Source: Giardia intestinalis
Taxonomy: Eukaryota
Reading direction: 5' to 3' (one strand)
Length of the DNA: 5,185 nt
NCBI GenBank assembly: GCA_000002435.2
Contig: AACB03000011.1
Shown one piece after another: positions 1 to 5,185 of the stretch (positions within the stretch are counted from its first letter, which is position 1; every line of letters begins with the position of its first letter). Made by a program: the position numbers and the translations under genes. The notes beneath the pieces are model-generated. The model did no database searches, had not been told where the DNA came from, and saw nothing but the letters and a program-made list of their open reading frames with translations.

Positions 1-1373
1 ACACGGGGCGCTAGTGGTCATGCTTGGGCACCCTGCCCGCTGTCGGCTGCCCCACAGCGCGCGAACGGACCCCTGGGCCTGCGTGCCGAGCTGTCTCCCC
101 TGGTACTCCTCGCTCGCACCCGAGGCCTCTTGCCCCTATCATTCGGGTGTGCATCACGTCCAGACACGGTGCGATAGATGCCTAGCCGCGATGCCATACA
201 CACTCGACCAGGCCGGGCCAGGCCGGACGCCCCCCTGGATGGCCAGACACCCCGCCCTGCCTACGTTGGGCACTTCCTCGATGGGACTCGTCATCTGCCC
301 ACGCCGCAGCCCGGTGTTCGTCTGTCTGTCCTCCCGGGCAGCGGCGGTCCTTGGGTGCTGAGTCTGGCGAGCTGGTGCTGGGGGAAGAGGCTAGCCCCGT
401 GTGTCATTCGTACCATCGCACCGCGCCGTGCTGATCCCCCCATGGAACTGCCCGCCAGTGGCCGCCTCCGGTCCGGGGCGGCACAGCCCTGGCTCGGGCC
501 ATCCTCTGCTGCAGCGCCCCGGTGCCCCCTGGAGAGGATGGCCGGGTGCTATGTGCTACTGAGCCCTCGGGTGCATCGCTTCCCCACTGCCCCCCCTCAT
601 GTACCCACTCTGGGCGCCCCGGTACAGGGAACCTGGTCACTCTGGCCCTGGCCTCCAGGTGCTTGCCCTCCAATGGGCCATCCCTCATGCGCCTGTGTTT
701 GCCTGGCCCATTCTCCCCTGTCCTCTCTACCTCTCCTGCTCGGTCTCCGCTGGAGTCGCGGTGACGGCTGTTGACAGTCCCGGCCGGGCCCCCAGGTTTC
801 GCTCCATACCTGGGCCACATGCCTCCCACCAGCGCTGGCACCACATGGGTTGCTTGTCACAGATGGGACTGGCACGCACAGAAGAATATGGCTCCACGGC
901 GCTCTGCCGGTCTGTCCTGAGCTGGCGTCATCAGCCTGGACCCGCCCTTAGGGGGCCTCCTCCATCACCCGTGCCTCCCCACACCACCTCCTAAGCCGTC
1001 AGTCTGCTCTCTCAGGCGTGACCTTCTGTCGGCCTCCTGGGCCGTATGGGACCACCGCCCCGCTGCCCCCGCCATCTTGGCCAGACGCCTCCGGTGAGCC
1101 ACCATTCTGGAATAGCACGACACGTGTGGATGGGCTAGCTATGGCGCACGGTCCGCACCCTCCCTTCTCACGGACTCCCGGGGACAGTCCGGACGCGTCT
1201 CCCTTGTCCCCCGAATCGGTGGCCCCGGCCGATCCCCATCGTGCATCCTTATATGGGGCACTGCACACACCTGTCCACGCTGTCCCCTTGGGCCGGCCAC
1301 AGCTCACCCCGTGTGTCGATGGGCCAGAATTTGGGCTCCCCAAACCCCTCCACCCCCAAGCTGTTTCCTCGCC

Positions 1374-2140
1374 GGTTCTCTGGGCTCGCGCTTCCCTTTT
1401 TAGTGCAACAGCATTATGGTGCCTCGCGTATGTGCGCGGTGCAGTGGGCCGGTCTGTAGGCCTGCCTTTGACTGGAATCCTGGATCCCTGGGTTTCTGGC
1501 CCGACGCGTCGTCTTCTACCCCCAAACAGGCCTGCACTCTTCTTGGTCCACGGGCTATTTGTCTCTTTGTTTCCGCGGCCCAGGGCCTGCTGGTTGCGCC
1601 GGGGCGACGCTCATGGTGGATTTTATTTTTTCCAAAATCCAGAATTTGGGCCTGAAGACCGCCCCCGCAGGGCCTGGAGGATGCGGGGAATCGGTCCACC
1701 CACACCATGCGCTCGAGCAAAGGCCAAGCACCCACGCCATCACGTCTCATCCAGGACTCCTGCGCCGCCACGGAGGAGGATCGGCACCTTCGCCATCGAT
1801 CCTCCAGGATGCCCCCCTACCACTCCCCCTCACATGGCACGCCTCCCTCGGGCCTGTATGTCTGCATGCCGCTATGCCCTAACACCGCAGGCCGCCCTCT
1901 CCGCGGATCCACTAACACACAGCCTGCAGCGCCTGGCCCCCCTGGCCGTGACCCGCGCGCCCCCGCGCACAGGAGCATACCCCTGGAGCTGGGGAGAAGG
2001 CCCCCCTGGCCGCGCCCCCGCCGCGAGACCACGCGGGCACGGGGGCTGGGCGCCCCGGGCGGGCCCTTCCCCTCCGTCGTGAGGCTGCCTCCCCTCCAAT
2101 GTCCTTACCGCCTTGCGCGCATATTACGTAGTAAACCGCC
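1374..2140 (+). repeat. Tandem direct repeat, unit 1 (767 bp)
   Basis: Base-by-base comparison with 2148-2915 shows identity apart from one C-run length (C5 at ~1519-1523 against C6 in copy 2). Every six-frame ORF inside is duplicated at an offset of 774/775 bp, for example 1400-1771(-) against 2124-2546(-) and 1555-1743(-) against 2330-2518(-). No coding signal. Confidence 0.96.
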
Positions 2141-2147
2141 TCTGTCT

Positions 2148-2915
2148 GGTTCTCTGGGCTCGCGCTTCCCTTTTTAGTGCAACAGCATTATGGTGCCTCG
2201 CGTATGTGCGCGGTGCAGTGGGCCGGTCTGTAGGCCTGCCTTTGACTGGAATCCTGGATCCCTGGGTTTCTGGCCCGACGCGTCGTCTTCTACCCCCCAA
2301 ACAGGCCTGCACTCTTCTTGGTCCACGGGCTATTTGTCTCTTTGTTTCCGCGGCCCAGGGCCTGCTGGTTGCGCCGGGGCGACGCTCATGGTGGATTTTA
2401 TTTTTTCCAAAATCCAGAATTTGGGCCTGAAGACCGCCCCCGCAGGGCCTGGAGGATGCGGGGAATCGGTCCACCCACACCATGCGCTCGAGCAAAGGCC
2501 AAGCACCCACGCCATCACGTCTCATCCAGGACTCCTGCGCCGCCACGGAGGAGGATCGGCACCTTCGCCATCGATCCTCCAGGATGCCCCCCTACCACTC
2601 CCCCTCACATGGCACGCCTCCCTCGGGCCTGTATGTCTGCATGCCGCTATGCCCTAACACCGCAGGCCGCCCTCTCCGCGGATCCACTAACACACAGCCT
2701 GCAGCGCCTGGCCCCCCTGGCCGTGACCCGCGCGCCCCCGCGCACAGGAGCATACCCCTGGAGCTGGGGAGAAGGCCCCCCTGGCCGCGCCCCCGCCGCG
2801 AGACCACGCGGGCACGGGGGCTGGGCGCCCCGGGCGGGCCCTTCCCCTCCGTCGTGAGGCTGCCTCCCCTCCAATGTCCTTACCGCCTTGCGCGCATATT
2901 ACGTAGTAAACCGCC
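2148..2915 (+). repeat. Tandem direct repeat, unit 2 (768 bp), followed by the A15 tract
   Basis: Identical to unit 1 except one extra C at ~2294-2299. A 7-bp spacer tctgtct (2141-2147) separates the units. The unit ends gcgcgcatattacgtagtaaaccgcc, then cct plus A15. Confidence 0.96.
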
Positions 2916-2938
2916 CCTAAAAAAAAAAAAAAACCATG
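2890..2938 (+). promoter_or_regulatory. Candidate initiator region: AT-rich box (catattacgtagtaaa) plus A15 immediately upstream of the ORF ATG, leaving a near-zero 5' UTR
   Basis: This is the only strongly AT-rich stretch in a GC-rich context, and it ends 2 nt before the ATG at 2936. The same AT-rich box, without the A-run, closes repeat unit 1 at 2115-2140. A promoter role is inference only. Confidence 0.35.
2919..2933 (+). other. Perfect A15 tract, poly(A)-tail-like, at the 3' edge of repeat unit 2
   Basis: 15 consecutive A seen directly. It is absent at the equivalent position after unit 1, so it is not part of the repeat consensus. A retroelement ORF start follows 2 nt later. Confidence 0.93.
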
Positions 2939-3922
2939 CGTTCCGCCCTTTCCGCGCCTTCGGGAACCACGGAGATCGGGGCTTCCTCAGGCCCAGAGCC
3001 TCCCAACCACGCTCCAACCGACTCCCACAGGCCCCTACCTAGGGGCACTCCCGATCCTATGACGCTGGGTGACGGCAACGATGCCTCGACGACCGCCATG
3101 GCCCGGCCTTCCTCTTGCGAGCCCCTCTGCGGCTCCCACGGGCCCCCATCCCCCCAGCCTGGGCCTGGCAACAGCCGTTCCGCCACGGACAACTCTCCCA
3201 ATGAGTCTTCTCCTGTCCATGGCTTACAGGGCTCCGGGGCCTCGGTGGCCCGGGACGCCTCTCCTCCCTGCCTGTCGAACGACCTTCTGCCCTGTGGCCA
3301 GGAGCCCCTCCCGATTCCCGACGACGGCCTCCCATACGACCTGGGCCACGACAACTCCCCGTCCATCACGGACGAGCAGGAGGCCCGGGGCGCAGACCTG
3401 CCTGCTCCTGGGGGCCGTACGACTGTCTGCGAGCGCTGCGGAGAGGTGCTGCCTGACTCTGCGGCGATCGATGTCCACATCGGGATGCACCATCCGCCTC
3501 CCGGTTCACCTTCTCCGTCGCGCAGCCCTTCTCCGCTGTCGGGGTCTGCCCCTCCACCTGCAGCCGCCGAGCCCTCTCCCTCGCCAACGCCGGACCCTGT
3601 GTTCCCGTATGCATGCAGCATGTGCCGGGCCCGATACAAAACGGAGAGGGGGCTGAAGGCCCATATCGCCAGGCTCGGCCACTACCTCCCGCTCGACGCC
3701 ACAGTCCCCGAGCGCATCGGGGTGCCTAGTGGCAGCCCGTCCCCTGAGCTGCTTCGCCTCCTCACTGACGTATTCACAGAGATGGCGGGGCGCCTTCCTC
3801 CTGTAGAGGCCCTAGCGCGCTTCCTCTCGACGTGCCGCCGCATGGAGGGCTCTGGACGGCTCCCCCCGCGCAGTCGCTTCTCCGGAAGGGGCTGCTCGGC
3901 CGGGCATGGCAGGCGCTGTTGA
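2936..3922 (+). CDS. N-terminal ORF segment: Ser/Pro-rich region, two C2H2 zinc fingers and a linker. The true reading probably leaves this frame near 3860-3900.
   Basis: 328-aa ORF in the supplied track starting at ATG 2936. It contains VCERCGEVLPDSAAIDVHIGMHH and YACSMCRARYKTERGLKAHIARLGH. The downstream part, ELLRLLTDVFTEMAGRLPPVEALARFL, has protein-like composition. Confidence 0.7.
   Translation: MRSALSAPSGTTEIGASSGPEPPNHAPTDSHRPLPRGTPDPMTLGDGNDASTTAMARPSSCEPLCGSHGPPSPQPGPGNSRSATDNSPNESSPVHGLQGSGASVARDASPPCLSNDLLPCGQEPLPIPDDGLPYDLGHDNSPSITDEQEARGADLPAPGGRTTVCERCGEVLPDSAAIDVHIGMHHPPPGSPSPSRSPSPLSGSAPPPAAAEPSPSPTPDPVFPYACSMCRARYKTERGLKAHIARLGHYLPLDATVPERIGVPSGSPSPELLRLLTDVFTEMAGRLPPVEALARFLSTCRRMEGSGRLPPRSRFSGRGCSAGHGRRC
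3428..3493 (+). other. C2H2 zinc finger 1 (C-X2-C-X12-H-X3-H)
   Basis: Translated in frame 2: C ERC GEVLPDSAAIDV H IGM H. The spacing is canonical. Confidence 0.8.
3614..3682 (+). other. C2H2 zinc finger 2 (C-X2-C-X12-H-X5-H)
   Basis: Translated in frame 2: C SM C RARYKTERGLKA H IARLG H. It follows the aromatic residue (Y) two positions before the first Cys, as in classical fingers. Confidence 0.75.
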
Positions 3923-4104
3923 GCGAGACGTCCTCTGCCGCCAGGGTCCCCGAGCCCCAGGGCAAGGAGCGGGAAGCGATTGTCCATGAGCTCCACCCGC
4001 GCCCCATGCCTGTCTCTCTGCCCCCCGTCCATCACGTGCTCGGCCCGTCGCCCAAGATAACGGCCAAGGCGCTGCTGAAGGAGCTGCAGGCGATGAGGCC
4101 TGTC

Positions 4105-4332
4105 GCGGCCGGACCCTCTGGGCTGGGGAAGCCTCACCTCCTGCACCTTTGTGGGGCCGCCGGGGCTGCGGAGCTCTTCACCTCTGTCCTGACGACCCTC
4201 TTCTCCAGCAGGAACTGGGCCCAGCTCCAGCCCCTGTGCGAGTTCAGGCTGAAGCTTCTGCCCAAGTCTGGCGGCCGATGGCGCCCTATCGCAGTGCAGG
4301 AGACGCTTCTGGTCGCCTTCCACCGCTTGCTC
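4105..4332 (+). CDS. RT N-terminal fingers segment (frame 1): motifs 1 and 2
   Basis: AAGPSGLGK at 4105-4131 matches the RT motif PGPDGI. RPIAVQETLLVAFHRLL at 4282-4332 matches the R2/LINE motif RPISL......F..IL..RL. Confidence 0.8.
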
Positions 4333-4442
4333 CTGCGTCGGACTCCGCGCTCCGCAAGCTCCCGGCGTGGCAGCTGGCCTTTGAGCACCTCGCCCAGATG
4401 AAGGCGATCCGCGCGGCCGAGGAGCTGAAGAGGACACACCAC

Positions 4443-4481
4443 CTGCTCACGGTGGATGTGCGGAATGCCTTCAACAGCGTC
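4443..4481 (+). other. RT motif A (frame 0): LLTVDVRNAFNSV with the catalytic Asp
   Basis: Matches the consensus hhhhD..KAFD.V. The Asp codon gat is at 4455-4457. Confidence 0.8.
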
Positions 4482-4483
4482 CG

Positions 4484-4650
4484 CATTCCGTCATCCTCTT
4501 TGCGCTCCGCCGGGCAGGGGTGGTCCAGCCGACCGTCGCGTACATTGAGCGTTCCTCGCGGCTCGGCACTCCTCGGACCTCCCGCGGTCCCAGCGGGCGT
4601 GCACAGGGGACCCGCTGTCCATGGCGATGTTCTGCCAGAGCCTTGTTGGC
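4484..4650 (+). CDS. RT palm segment between motifs A and B', read across a frame 2 to frame 1 switch at the gggg run
   Basis: Frame 2 reads HSVILFALRRAGVVQPTVAYIERSSRLGT...GRAQG. Frame 1 reads GDPLSMAMFCQSLVG. The sequence shows caggggaccc where cagggggaccc would give in-frame QGDPLS. Confidence 0.75.
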
Positions 4651-4656
4651 CGGTGA

Positions 4657-4800
4657 GACGTACCTCGGCCAGTCAAGGTCGTTGCATACGCCGACGACCT
4701 CGTCATTGCGTCAGAGGAGGCGATTCCCATAGATACCGTGAAGAGTGACGCGCAGTTCGCCCTCTCCCGCATAGGGCTCACGGTCGAGCTCTCGAAGTGC
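4657..4800 (+). CDS. RT motif C segment (frame 1): VKVVAYADDLVIASEE...ALSRIGLTVELSK
   Basis: YADD at 4687-4698 is the catalytic YXDD box. The following GL.V.LSK resembles the post-YXDD G(L/M).LN..KS segment of R2-type RTs. An in-frame TGA lies immediately upstream at 4654-4656. Confidence 0.85.
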
Positions 4801-5185
4801 TCCTCGACCCAGGCCGGGCGATCTCCTTCATGGGCACCCGCGTGCTCAAGCACTCCTCCTTCAACCTCGCGCAGACATCGGCCCGCCGGCTCCACGAGCA
4901 TCTCGCCGTCCTCCGTGCTTCGGGTCTCTCACTCCACGACCGCCTCAGGCTCCTGTCTGCCTGCGTCGTCCCTGCAGTTAACTATGGACCCCTTGTTGAC
5001 GACTACCCGGCCCGTCCCCCTATGCCGACGTCGATGCGCAGATAGTGGAGGAGGTCGCGACCCTTCTGGAGATCCCCGAACCCCTTGCGAAGACCCTTGC
5101 TCTGACGCCCCGCGCGAAGTACGGCCTCGGACTGGTGCTGCCCATCACTACTACGACGAGATGCACAGGCAGCGCCAGGACATGA
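4797..5185 (+). CDS. RT motif E and thumb segments: frame 0 up to ~5010, then frame 2 to the window end
   Basis: Frame 0 reads VLLDPGRAISFMGTRVLKH...HDRLRLLSACVVPAVNYGPLVDD, which includes the F(L/M)G motif. Frame 2 reads YADVDAQIVEEVATLLEIPEPLAKTLALTPRAKYGLGLVLP, which matches the R2 thumb pattern LDVQI...V...L.LP...PK.....A...GGLAIP. Confidence 0.75.

What the first reader, a model, noticed from the sequence alone, without database searches (positions are those of the whole stretch)
1374..2915. Two ~768-bp tandem units at ~99.9% identity sit directly against the retroelement 5' end: site-specific target array or 3' UTR of an upstream copy?
**Seen in sequence.**
- Unit 1 is 1374-2140 and unit 2 is 2148-2915, with the spacer tctgtct between them.
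- The units are identical apart from one C-run length.
- Sequence upstream of 1374 does not resemble the unit.
- Unit 2 is followed by cct-A15-cc-ATG.

**Model A.** The ~775-bp period is a genomic tandem satellite that serves as a specific insertion target for this element. REL-endo non-LTR elements are typically site-specific and often target tandem arrays such as rDNA or spliced-leader genes. From memory, and unverified, Giardia Genie 1 was reported inside a ~771-bp repeat.

**Model B.** 1-2934 is the long 3' UTR and poly(A) of an upstream copy in a head-to-tail retrotransposon array. I recall this being described for the telomeric Giardia GilM/GilT elements. The 775-bp duplication would then be internal to that UTR.

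**Significance.** Either way, the near-perfect identity of the two units points to very recent duplication or homogenisation. The one C-run difference shifts the long Pro-rich ORF (1018-2082 against 2318-2857) without consequence, which confirms the units are non-coding.
Basis: partly seen in the sequence, partly recalled or inferred. Interest (0 to 1): 0.72.

Follow-up and report, generated by a model that had tools for sequence, protein, structure and literature searches.

The report
Duplicated 3' tail between GilM retrotransposons
The two near-identical 768-base units are the doubled tail end of the long 3' untranslated region of a Giardia GilM (Genie 1) retrotransposon that sits head-to-tail against the next copy, an arrangement already described in 2001-2002, so the finding is real but ordinary.

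Summary
In detail: 1374-2140 and 2148-2915 differ by one C in a C-run, are separated by TCTGTCT, and are followed by CCT-A15-CC-ATG.

The element is not new. Its RT domain matches published Giardia intestinalis GilM at 281 of 282 residues. Two published "Genie-1" primers match the window exactly.

The evidence favours Model B:
- The only two matches to the Giardia poly(A) signal (AGTRAAY) in the window end the two units. The second sits 7 nt before the A15 run, so A15 reads as a retrotransposed poly(A) tail.
- Eight junctions, in the window and in diverged relatives, share one layout: a conserved 3' module, usually about 230 nt, then AGTAAAY, then A7-15, then CC(C)ATG.
- In G. duodenalis contig AHHH01000293, 2.73 kb of unrepeated sequence runs from an ORF stop to that tail.

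The units are therefore the last 768 nt of the upstream copy's 3' UTR, present twice. How the doubling arose is inferred only. Candidates are a tail-only truncated copy, a reverse-transcriptase template jump, or a DNA-level duplication.

Model A (an independent target satellite) is not excluded, because the element's own 3' junction lies outside the window.

The ORF's roughly 12 frameshifts look like assembly errors. The single difference between the units may be one too.

The parts
1..1373 (+). Family-specific upstream part of the 3' UTR of the upstream GilM copy. It is non-repeated, and the upstream ORF stop is not identifiable within it.
   Evidence: No RT or endonuclease remnant by tblastn. 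No protein homologue of any of its ORFs. No similarity to the unit or to the UTRs of relatives.
1374..2140 (+). Unit 1: the first copy of the terminal 768 nt of the 3' UTR. It ends at the same base as unit 2 but has no poly(A) after it.
2141..2147 (+). 7-nt junction TCTGTCT between the units. The first three bases, TCT, may still be UTR (compare CCT after unit 2), which would leave 4 nt of filler.
   Evidence: direct reading of the sequence.
2148..2915 (+). Unit 2: the second copy of the terminal 768 nt of the 3' UTR.
2687..2918 (+). Conserved ~232-nt 3' module, from CTAACACACAGC to the poly(A) site, also present at 1912-2140 in unit 1. It is shared with diverged relatives, while the rest of the inter-ORF sequence is unalignable.
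   Evidence: Window 2641-2929 matches L007 4113-4400 at 71%. L001 matches L007 at 84% over 270 nt. Alignment A1. Motif positions.
2814..2850 (+). G-rich core ACGGGGGCTGGGCGCCCCGGGCGGGCCCTTCCCCTCC, invariant in the six aligned tails (also at 2039-2075). Together with the GGG that starts at 2810 it forms a canonical G-quadruplex motif.
   Evidence: Invariant columns in A1. G4 regular expression. The core is absent from L005 and partly deleted in the L006 orphan.
2905..2911 (+). AGTAAAC, a match to the Giardia poly(A) signal AGTRAAY, 7 nt before the A-run. A second copy at 2130-2136 ends unit 1.
   Evidence: These are the only two AGTRAAY matches in the window on either strand, against 0.2 expected per strand. 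Consensus from PMC1872034 and PMC1805757.
2919..2933 (+). A15, read as the poly(A) tail of the upstream copy. It is also the A-rich tract immediately 5' of the next ORF.
   Evidence: Relatives carry A7-A12 at the same place.
2936..5185 (+). First 2.25 kb of the downstream GilM ORF: two C2H2 zinc fingers and the RT domain (4105-4970). It is cut off by the window end before the CCHC/REL-endonuclease part and carries about 12 single-base frameshifts between about 3870 and 5145.
   Evidence: Pfam zf-C2H2_4 at E 4.8e-6. 281 of 282 residues match the GilM RT. Genie-1 primers at 4191-4210 and 4491-4508. Frameshift map.

Best explanation
The window is the joint between two head-to-tail copies of the Giardia intestinalis non-LTR retrotransposon GilM (= Genie 1).

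Positions 1-2933 are the 3' UTR and poly(A) tail of the upstream copy. Position 2936 onward is the ORF of the downstream copy, which starts two bases after that tail.

The '768-bp unit' is the last 768 nt of this UTR. It consists of about 536 nt of family-specific sequence followed by a ~232-nt 3' module that all relatives share. That module ends in the Giardia poly(A) signal AGTAAAC.

In this copy the terminal 768 nt is present twice.

Shown here:
- the identity of the element;
- the repeat and its boundaries;
- that the only poly(A) signals lie at the unit ends, with A15 at the expected distance from the second one;
- that the same tail, A-run and CC(C)ATG junction recurs in diverged relatives;
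- that in one relative the tail is continuous with 2.5 kb of unique sequence following an ORF stop.

Inferred:
- The transcript runs from the ATG through the ORF and the UTR and is polyadenylated after the unit.
- The ZF-RT-endonuclease protein recognises the conserved 3' module and copies the RNA by target-primed reverse transcription, so that the new copy's tail abuts the 5' end of a resident copy.
- The A-tract may then act as the A/T-rich initiator for the resident ORF.
- The doubling most likely arose through the retrotransposition machinery, because unit 1 stops 0-3 nt from the poly(A) site and is joined through 4-7 filler bases. It would be either a tail-only 5'-truncated copy added within the array, or a template jump by the RT. 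I rate this about 0.35 against a DNA-level duplication or unequal exchange.
For: **Identity**
- The RT domain at 4105-4970 matches GilM (AF433875) at 281 of 282 residues and GilT at 66%.
- The Genie-1 primers of Chen et al. 2007 match exactly.

**Tail**
- AGTRAAY occurs only at 2130 and 2905 in 5185 nt on both strands, against 0.2 expected per strand.
- A15 starts 7 nt after the second signal.
- The consensus signal and A-rich start sites are documented in PMC1872034 and PMC1805757.

**Recurrence**
- The window, L001 (twice), L002, L003/L004, L005 and L007 all read tail-AGTAAAY-N6-10-A7-15-CC(C)ATG.
- In L001-L004 and L007 that AGTRAAY is the only one on the sense strand. L005 has a second at 1105.

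**Continuity**
- In L007 the ORF stops at 1655, followed by 2.73 kb with no tandem repeat and no other A-run, then the tail, A12 and an ATG at 4404.

**Selective conservation**
- About 230-290 nt before the poly(A) is 71-84% identical between families.
- The ORFs are about 67-71% identical at the DNA level and the rest of the UTR is unalignable.

**Orphan tail**
- L006 holds a 5'-truncated ~125-nt tail that ends at ...AGTAAATTACTCTG.

**Literature**
- GilM and GilT are described as head-to-tail arrays with 5' truncations and unusually long 3' UTRs (PMC5537684).
- GilM tandem copies are reported as 5,474 bp (PMC7000408).
Against: - The upstream ORF stop and this element's own 3' junction are not in the window. 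Continuity of 1-1373 with a GilM ORF is therefore inferred from a relative, not seen.
- Model A predicts equally well that the stretch between elements is a whole number of periods.
- There is no poly(A) between unit 1 and unit 2, which a simple tail-to-head addition of a truncated copy would normally leave.
- All eight junctions show an untrimmed CC(C)ATG 5' end. That fits site-specific insertion or array homogenisation better than erosion-prone addition at chromosome ends.
- No copy of the unit from any other locus of this family could be retrieved.
- The L006 orphan lies in a possibly chimeric contig.
- No RNA-structure signal was found in the conserved module: z = 0.46 and no informative covariation.
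Confidence: 0.72

Rival explanations
1. Model A: the ~775-bp period is an independent chromosomal satellite, and GilM/Genie 1 inserts site-specifically at one position in it. The element would run from (A15)CC-ATG to ...CCTCGCC at 1373. The two units would be uninserted target repeats lying between two insertions, and TCTGTCT would be lost at insertion.
For: - Chen et al. 2007 summarise Burke et al. [quoted passage not shown]
- From memory, Burke et al. give the repeat as 771 bp.
- REL-endonuclease elements are typically site-specific (established knowledge).
- Relatives carry CCHC plus PD..D..K motifs.
- The inter-element stretch is two periods minus 7 nt, and the unit1-unit2 junction looks like an empty site.
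- All junctions have a precise 5' end.
Against: - An A7-A15 run at the same place in eight junctions of diverged families, each 6-10 nt after an AGTAAAY signal, is what a poly(A) tail looks like. It is not what a target or a 5' junction looks like.
- No poly(A) signal exists near 1373. A GilM transcript would therefore read into the unit and end there, which makes the unit part of the RNA in any case.
- The proposed target is conserved only on the upstream side. Nothing resembling the unit's start (GGTTCTCTGGG...) is found after the ORF in L007.
- L007 shows no ~775-bp periodicity.
Confidence: 0.15
2. DNA-level tandem duplication or unequal sister-chromatid exchange inside an ordinary 3' UTR, unrelated to reverse transcription. 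This is Model B in which the doubling is a plain genomic rearrangement.
For: - Near-perfect identity of the two units and a direct tandem arrangement.
- Arrays of repeats are prone to unequal exchange (established knowledge).
- There is no poly(A) between the units.
Against: - The 3' breakpoint falls 0-3 nt from the poly(A) site. The chance of that is roughly 4 in more than 2,100 possible positions in the UTR (my estimate coordinates).
- The junction carries 4-7 bases of filler rather than a clean or microhomology join.
Confidence: 0.3
3. Assembly artefact: the second unit was created by mis-assembly of a repetitive array in an indel-prone assembly.
For: The window carries many single-base indels that look like errors. 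GilM arrays are documented as hard to assemble (PMC7000408 and PMC11169602).
Against: The junction TCTGTCT is novel sequence that collapse or expansion of reads would not produce. From memory, a repeat of this size next to Genie 1 was reported independently from Sanger data.
Confidence: 0.04

Closest known systems
GilM (AF433875; Arkhipova & Morrison 2001) = Genie 1 (Burke et al. 2002) of Giardia intestinalis
   Same: The RT domain is identical at 281 of 282 residues, and the published Genie-1 primers match exactly. The window has N-terminal C2H2 fingers, a head-to-tail junction, a very long 3' UTR, and a repeat of about 770 bp next to the 5' end.
   Different: Nothing of substance differs. 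This copy shows about 12 single-base frameshifts that look like sequence errors. It has two units, where the published 5,474-bp period fits roughly one unit per copy, but only if the window starts near the ORF stop, which is unverified.
GilT and the assemblage-B / metagenomic relatives (L001-L007)
   Same: They share the ORF architecture, the junction layout (tail-AGTAAAY-A-run-CC(C)ATG) and the conserved ~230-nt 3' module.
   Different: RT identity is 55-66%. The UTR upstream of the module is unrelated. No 768-nt duplication is seen: L007 has 2.73 kb without any tandem repeat.
Drosophila telomeric HeT-A/TART arrays
   Same: Both form head-to-tail arrays with the poly(A) of one copy abutting the 5' end of the next, have unusually long 3' UTRs, and include 5'-truncated members (PMC5537684). 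A neighbour's 3' end may help to promote the next copy; that is established for HeT-A and only inferred here.
   Different: They belong to a different clade (Jockey, APE-type or no endonuclease). No telomeric repeat or chromosome end is visible in this window. The junctions here are precise rather than eroded.
R2 and other REL-endonuclease site-specific elements (CRE, SLACS, NeSL)
   Same: They are single-ORF ZF-RT-CCHC-REL-endo proteins, and their RT recognises its own 3' UTR for target-primed reverse transcription. The R2 RT makes end-to-end template jumps with a few added bases (established knowledge), which is one possible origin for the unit1-filler-unit2 joint.
   Different: R2 has no poly(A) tail and sits in a host gene (28S rDNA). 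Here the 'target' carries a poly(A) signal and tail and behaves as part of the element.

Membership tests
GilM / Genie 1 (Giardia intestinalis) | Sequence identity to the published element | tested here: met
   281 of 282 RT residues match GilM AF433875, using the sequence printed in PMC10088271 Additional file 2. The Genie-1 primers match 20/20 and 18/18.
GilM / Genie 1 (Giardia intestinalis) | Single ORF with N-terminal C2H2 zinc finger(s) followed by RT | tested here: met
   zf-C2H2_4 at E 4.8e-6 on residues 225-246, plus a second CxxC...HxxxH at residues 162-185. RT motifs including YADD are intact after frameshift correction.
GilM / Genie 1 (Giardia intestinalis) | C-terminal CCHC motif and REL-type (PD..D/ExK) endonuclease | not testable with these tools
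   The window ends at 5185, before this region. The relative P0010 has CRHCKQPMLRRHHLVC followed by PDFVVDD...DLVVTV...K. Pfam has no model that detects it.
GilM / Genie 1 (Giardia intestinalis) | Head-to-tail arrays with unusually long 3' UTR | tested here: met
   At least 2.9 kb of non-coding sequence ends in a poly(A) signal and A15, two bases before the next ATG. The same layout appears in L007 with the ORF stop visible. The description is in PMC5537684.
GilM / Genie 1 (Giardia intestinalis) | Telomeric position / junction with (TAGGG)n | tested here: not met
   The window contains no tandem TAGGG or CCCTA. This says only that the window is internal to an array, not that the array is non-telomeric.
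GilM / Genie 1 (Giardia intestinalis) | Association with a ~771-bp repeat (Burke et al. 2002; the figure is from memory because the paper is not held) | tested here: met
   Two units of 767/768 nt with a period of 774/775 lie directly 5' of the ORF. The 771 figure could not be verified.
Site-specific insertion into an independent target array (R2-like behaviour) | The target sequence continues on both sides of the element, and empty target sites exist away from the element | not testable with these tools
   The 3' junction lies outside the window. No other copy of the unit could be retrieved from any collection.
Site-specific insertion into an independent target array (R2-like behaviour) | The flanking repeat is not part of the element's transcript | tested here: not met
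   The only poly(A) signals and the only A-tail lie at the end of the repeat unit. This is a sequence inference, not an RNA measurement.

The most novel reading that the evidence does not exclude
The 768-nt unit is a discrete 'tail-only' retrotranscript. It would be either a short RNA starting at the unit's 5' edge or the product of an RT template jump, which the GilM machinery adds to arrays as a non-autonomous passenger. Variation in the copy number of the '771-bp repeat' between GilM ORFs would then record retrotransposition events rather than satellite DNA or plain duplication. It would also reconcile the two published descriptions, target repeat versus 3' UTR.
Probability: 0.2. Interest if true: 0.45.

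Novelty: already known. Interest (0 to 1): 0.18.

Why it matters
It matters little beyond tidying up. GilM/Genie 1, its head-to-tail arrays, its long 3' UTR and the ~770-bp repeat next to it were described in 2001-2002.

The useful outcome is a clear reading of the repeat. It carries the element's poly(A) signal and a 3' module conserved across diverged families, so it behaves as the element's own tail rather than as host target DNA.

If direct RNA end-mapping confirmed this, it would settle a small, long-standing discrepancy between the two original descriptions. It would also mark the ~230-nt module, including its conserved G-rich core, as the likely recognition site for this early-branching reverse transcriptase.

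There is also a practical warning. This stretch of the source assembly is rich in indels, so the frameshifts here should not be read as a dead copy.

Tried and rejected
- **Primary papers.** Arkhipova & Morrison 2001, Burke et al. 2002 and Ullu et al. 2005 are not held. Searches for '771 bp' and 'Genie 1' found nothing usable.
- **Source contig.** An exact-protein look-up of the 328-aa ORF found nothing on record.
- **Metagenome scan.** The conserved 20-mer GGGCGCCCCGGGCGGGCCCT gave 10 loci. All were chance matches of 21-30 nt in GC-rich contigs.
- **Homology search for the non-coding ORFs.** A concatenation of all ORFs of at least 71 aa from the unit and from 1-1373, on both strands, returned no hit at E <= 0.01. 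No further copy of the unit could be fetched, and the ORFs have no relatives.
- **An older, degenerate third unit upstream of 1374.** None was found.
- **Upstream ORF C-terminus inside 1-1373.** There were only low-complexity matches, and the FYPFK-type end motif was absent. The resemblance of window 1-14 (ACACGGGGCGCTAG) to the L007 ORF end is too weak to use.
- **Rfam.** No match at E <= 1.
- **RNA structure of the 3' module.** z = 0.46 against shuffles, with an invariant core and no informative covariation.
- **The ORF as a decayed GilD-type 'dead' copy.** Rejected: over the 282 aligned RT residues there are 9 single-base frameshifts but only one amino-acid change and no in-frame stop.
- **TRF.** It reported nothing only because its period limit is 500.

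Full report
**1. The observation**

The window was read in full. A global alignment shows that 1374-2140 (767 nt) and 2148-2915 (768 nt) are identical except for one extra C at 2293, a C5 versus C6 run. The 7-nt TCTGTCT lies between them. Unit 2 is followed by CCT, A15 (2919-2933), CC and ATG at 2936.

- The repeat finder recovers the pair with spacing of 774/775.
- TRF is silent only because its period limit is 500.
- The 1373 nt upstream show no significant similarity to the unit: Smith-Waterman score 19 against 16.0 +/- 1.8 in shuffles.

**2. What the element is**

The ORF from 2936 has C2H2 zinc fingers. After frameshift correction it has a complete RT domain with YADD.

- The nearest named proteins in the large database are 'Reverse transcriptase/endonuclease [Giardia duodenalis]', at 55% identity over the best local alignment and 60% in the frameshift-aware alignment.
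- Two published 'Genie-1' primers (Chen et al. 2007, PMC1950533) match the window exactly at 4191-4210 (+) and 4491-4508 (-).
- The RT-domain sequence of GilM (AF433875), printed in Additional file 2 of PMC10088271, matches window 4105-4970 at 281 of 282 codon-aligned residues. GilT matches at 66%.

The window is therefore GilM, and by the primer match GilM is the same element as Genie 1.

The window has 9 single-base indels in that 866-nt stretch, 8 of them deletions, and about 12 overall between about 3870 and 5145. Against GilM's RT domain it shows only one amino-acid substitution and no in-frame stop. That ratio indicates sequencing or assembly error rather than a decaying copy. The one C-run difference between the two units is the same kind of change and may not be real.

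**3. What lies against its 5' end**

Three lines of evidence point the same way.

(a) *Poly(A) signal and tail.* The Giardia poly(A) signal is AGT[A/G]AA[T/C] (PMC1872034 and PMC1805757).
- The window has exactly two matches on either strand, at 2130 and 2905, against 0.2 expected per strand.
- Both are the last feature of a unit.
- The A15 run begins 7 nt after the second one.

(b) *Recurrence of the junction in relatives.* Related contigs were reached through protein homology: L001-L005 from ENA and Logan metagenome assemblies, and L006/L007 from G. duodenalis GCA_000498735.1.
- Although their ORFs are only 41-71% identical to the window in protein and about 67-71% in DNA, each has the same junction: a recognisable tail, (T/C)AGTAAAY, 6-10 nt, A7-A12, CC(C)ATG.
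- Counting the window, that makes eight junctions.
- In L001-L004 and L007 the AGTRAAY is the only one on the sense strand. L005 has a second at 1105.

(c) *Continuity from an ORF stop.* L007 shows the whole interval.
- An RT/endonuclease ORF ends at 1655.
- After it come 2.73 kb with no tandem repeat and no other A-run, then the tail, A12, and the next ORF's ATG at 4404.
- The poly(A) of one copy therefore directly abuts the start codon of the next.

This is the published picture of GilM/GilT: head-to-tail arrays, unusually long 3' UTRs and some 5'-truncated members (PMC5537684; a tandem GilM period of 5,474 bp in PMC7000408).

**4. Anatomy of the unit**

Only the last ~230-290 nt of the unit is alignable with relatives.
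- Window 2641-2929 matches L007 4113-4400 at 71%.
- L001 matches L007 at 84% over 270 nt.
- The shared block starts at CTAACACACAGC (window 1912 and 2687, L007 4158, L001 2561).
- It contains a 37-nt core, invariant in the six aligned tails, that is also a canonical G-quadruplex motif.

Everything further upstream, meaning the first ~536 nt of the unit and all of 1-1373, is family-specific.

A 3' module held at 71-84% identity while the rest of the UTR has diverged beyond alignment is what one expects of the part of the RNA that the element's own RT must recognise for target-primed reverse transcription. That reading is an inference. I found no structural signal to back it.

**5. Model A against Model B**

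Model A treats the 775-bp period as an independent satellite used as a target. It corresponds to how Chen et al. paraphrase Burke et al. [quoted passage not shown] It has one real strength. It predicts automatically that the stretch between two elements is a whole number of periods, so the neat boundaries alone do not discriminate between the models.

Three things count against it:
- It cannot explain an A-run of variable length at the same place in eight junctions, each preceded at the canonical distance by a conserved poly(A) signal embedded in otherwise diverged sequence.
- With no other signal in the window, any GilM transcript would read into the unit and end there. The unit would then be carried along at retrotransposition in any case.
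- The supposed target is conserved on the upstream side of the insertion point only.

I therefore favour Model B at about 0.72 and leave Model A at about 0.15. The decisive observation, this element's own 3' junction, lies beyond the window.

**6. The duplication itself**

Unit 1 ends at ...AGTAAACCGCC, the same base as unit 2. If the next TCT is equated with the CCT that precedes A15, unit 1 runs right up to the poly(A) site. Then come 4-7 bases that belong to neither side, and then a sequence that begins 768 nt from the 3' end.

- A breakpoint that close to the transcript's end is unlikely for a random genomic duplication: roughly 4 positions in more than 2,100.
- It suggests the machinery that handles RNA 3' ends. 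One route is a 5'-truncated, tail-only copy joined within the array. The other is an RT jump from the end of a broken template to the 3' end of another. The R2 enzyme is known to make such jumps and to add a few extra bases (established knowledge).
- Missing poly(A) between the units argues against the simplest version of this idea. I hold it at about 0.35.
- A plain DNA-level duplication or unequal exchange remains a live alternative.
- A possible second example of a tail ending without poly(A) is the orphan ~125-nt tail in L006. That contig may be chimeric, because the tail sits at the edge of 31-36% GC DNA with bacterial-looking genes.

**7. How the arrangement probably works (inferred)**

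- Giardia transcription starts at A-rich tracts just upstream of the ATG (PMC1872034).
- The downstream copy has only A15-CC before its ATG, so the upstream copy's poly(A) tail may supply its initiator. That would tie expression to array membership.
- The mRNA would run through the ORF and UTR and be polyadenylated after AGTAAAC.
- The protein would bind the 3' module and prime reverse transcription so that the new tail lands against a resident 5' end.

None of these steps was measured here.

**8. Novelty and score**

The element, its arrays, its long UTR and a repeat of this size beside it are all in the literature. What this check adds is modest:
- an unambiguous identification of the element;
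- sequence-based reasons to treat the repeat as the element's own tail;
- the definition of a ~230-nt module shared across families;
- a warning that the frameshifts are probably errors.

Interest is low, at 0.18.

The most novel reading still open is that the unit is a separately retrotransposed tail-only module. I put this at a probability of about 0.2. It would be moderately interesting if true.

Noticed in passing
window 3870-5145: The GilM ORF carries about 12 single-base frameshifts, nearly all deletions, with none in 2936-3870. Against the published GilM RT there is only one amino-acid change and no in-frame stop. The indels therefore look like assembly or sequencing errors rather than a dead copy.
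   Followed up: yes
window 2814-2850 and 2039-2075: A 37-nt G-rich core, ACGGGGGCT(C)GGGCGCCCCGGGCGGGCCCT..CCCCTCC, is invariant across six tails from diverged families. With the GGG that starts 4 nt upstream (2810 and 2035) it forms a canonical G-quadruplex motif on the sense strand. It is missing from L005 and has a 9-nt deletion in the L006 orphan.
   Followed up: partly
window 1620-1649 and 2395-2424: The most AT-rich 30-mer in the window (ATTTTATTTTTTCCAAAATCCAGAATTTGG, 77% AT against a mean of 34%) sits inside each unit. It is a candidate Giardia-type A/T-rich, possibly bidirectional, promoter. That could relate to the antisense and small RNAs reported from these elements.
   Followed up: no
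L006 1795-1918 (minus strand): An orphan 5'-truncated ~125-nt copy of the 3' module ends at ...AGTAAATTACTCTG with no poly(A). It lies exactly at the boundary between Giardia-like DNA and 31-36% GC DNA that carries bacterial-looking genes (SLT, guanylate kinase, exonuclease VII small subunit). The contig may be chimeric.
   Followed up: partly
L001 1-2936: This metagenomic contig repeats with a 2.63-kb period. The N-terminal third of the ORF is fused to about 1.4 kb of UTR, and a tail-A9-CCCATG junction occurs at both ends, with two different tail variants in front of the same ORF start. It is either an internally deleted element in an array or a collapsed assembly.
   Followed up: partly
L006 5379-6385 and 8461-9397: Two further fragmented RT remnants, only 26-40% identical to the neighbouring intact RT (P0005), lie upstream of it in the same G. 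duodenalis contig. They may be GilD-like dead copies.
   Followed up: no
window 1-14: ACACGGGGCGCTAG loosely resembles the end of the L007 ORF (CCACGGGCCTGCATAG). If the window starts at the upstream ORF's stop, then ORF plus UTR with one unit comes to about 5.5 kb, close to the published 5,474-bp GilM period. The match is too weak to rely on.
   Followed up: partly
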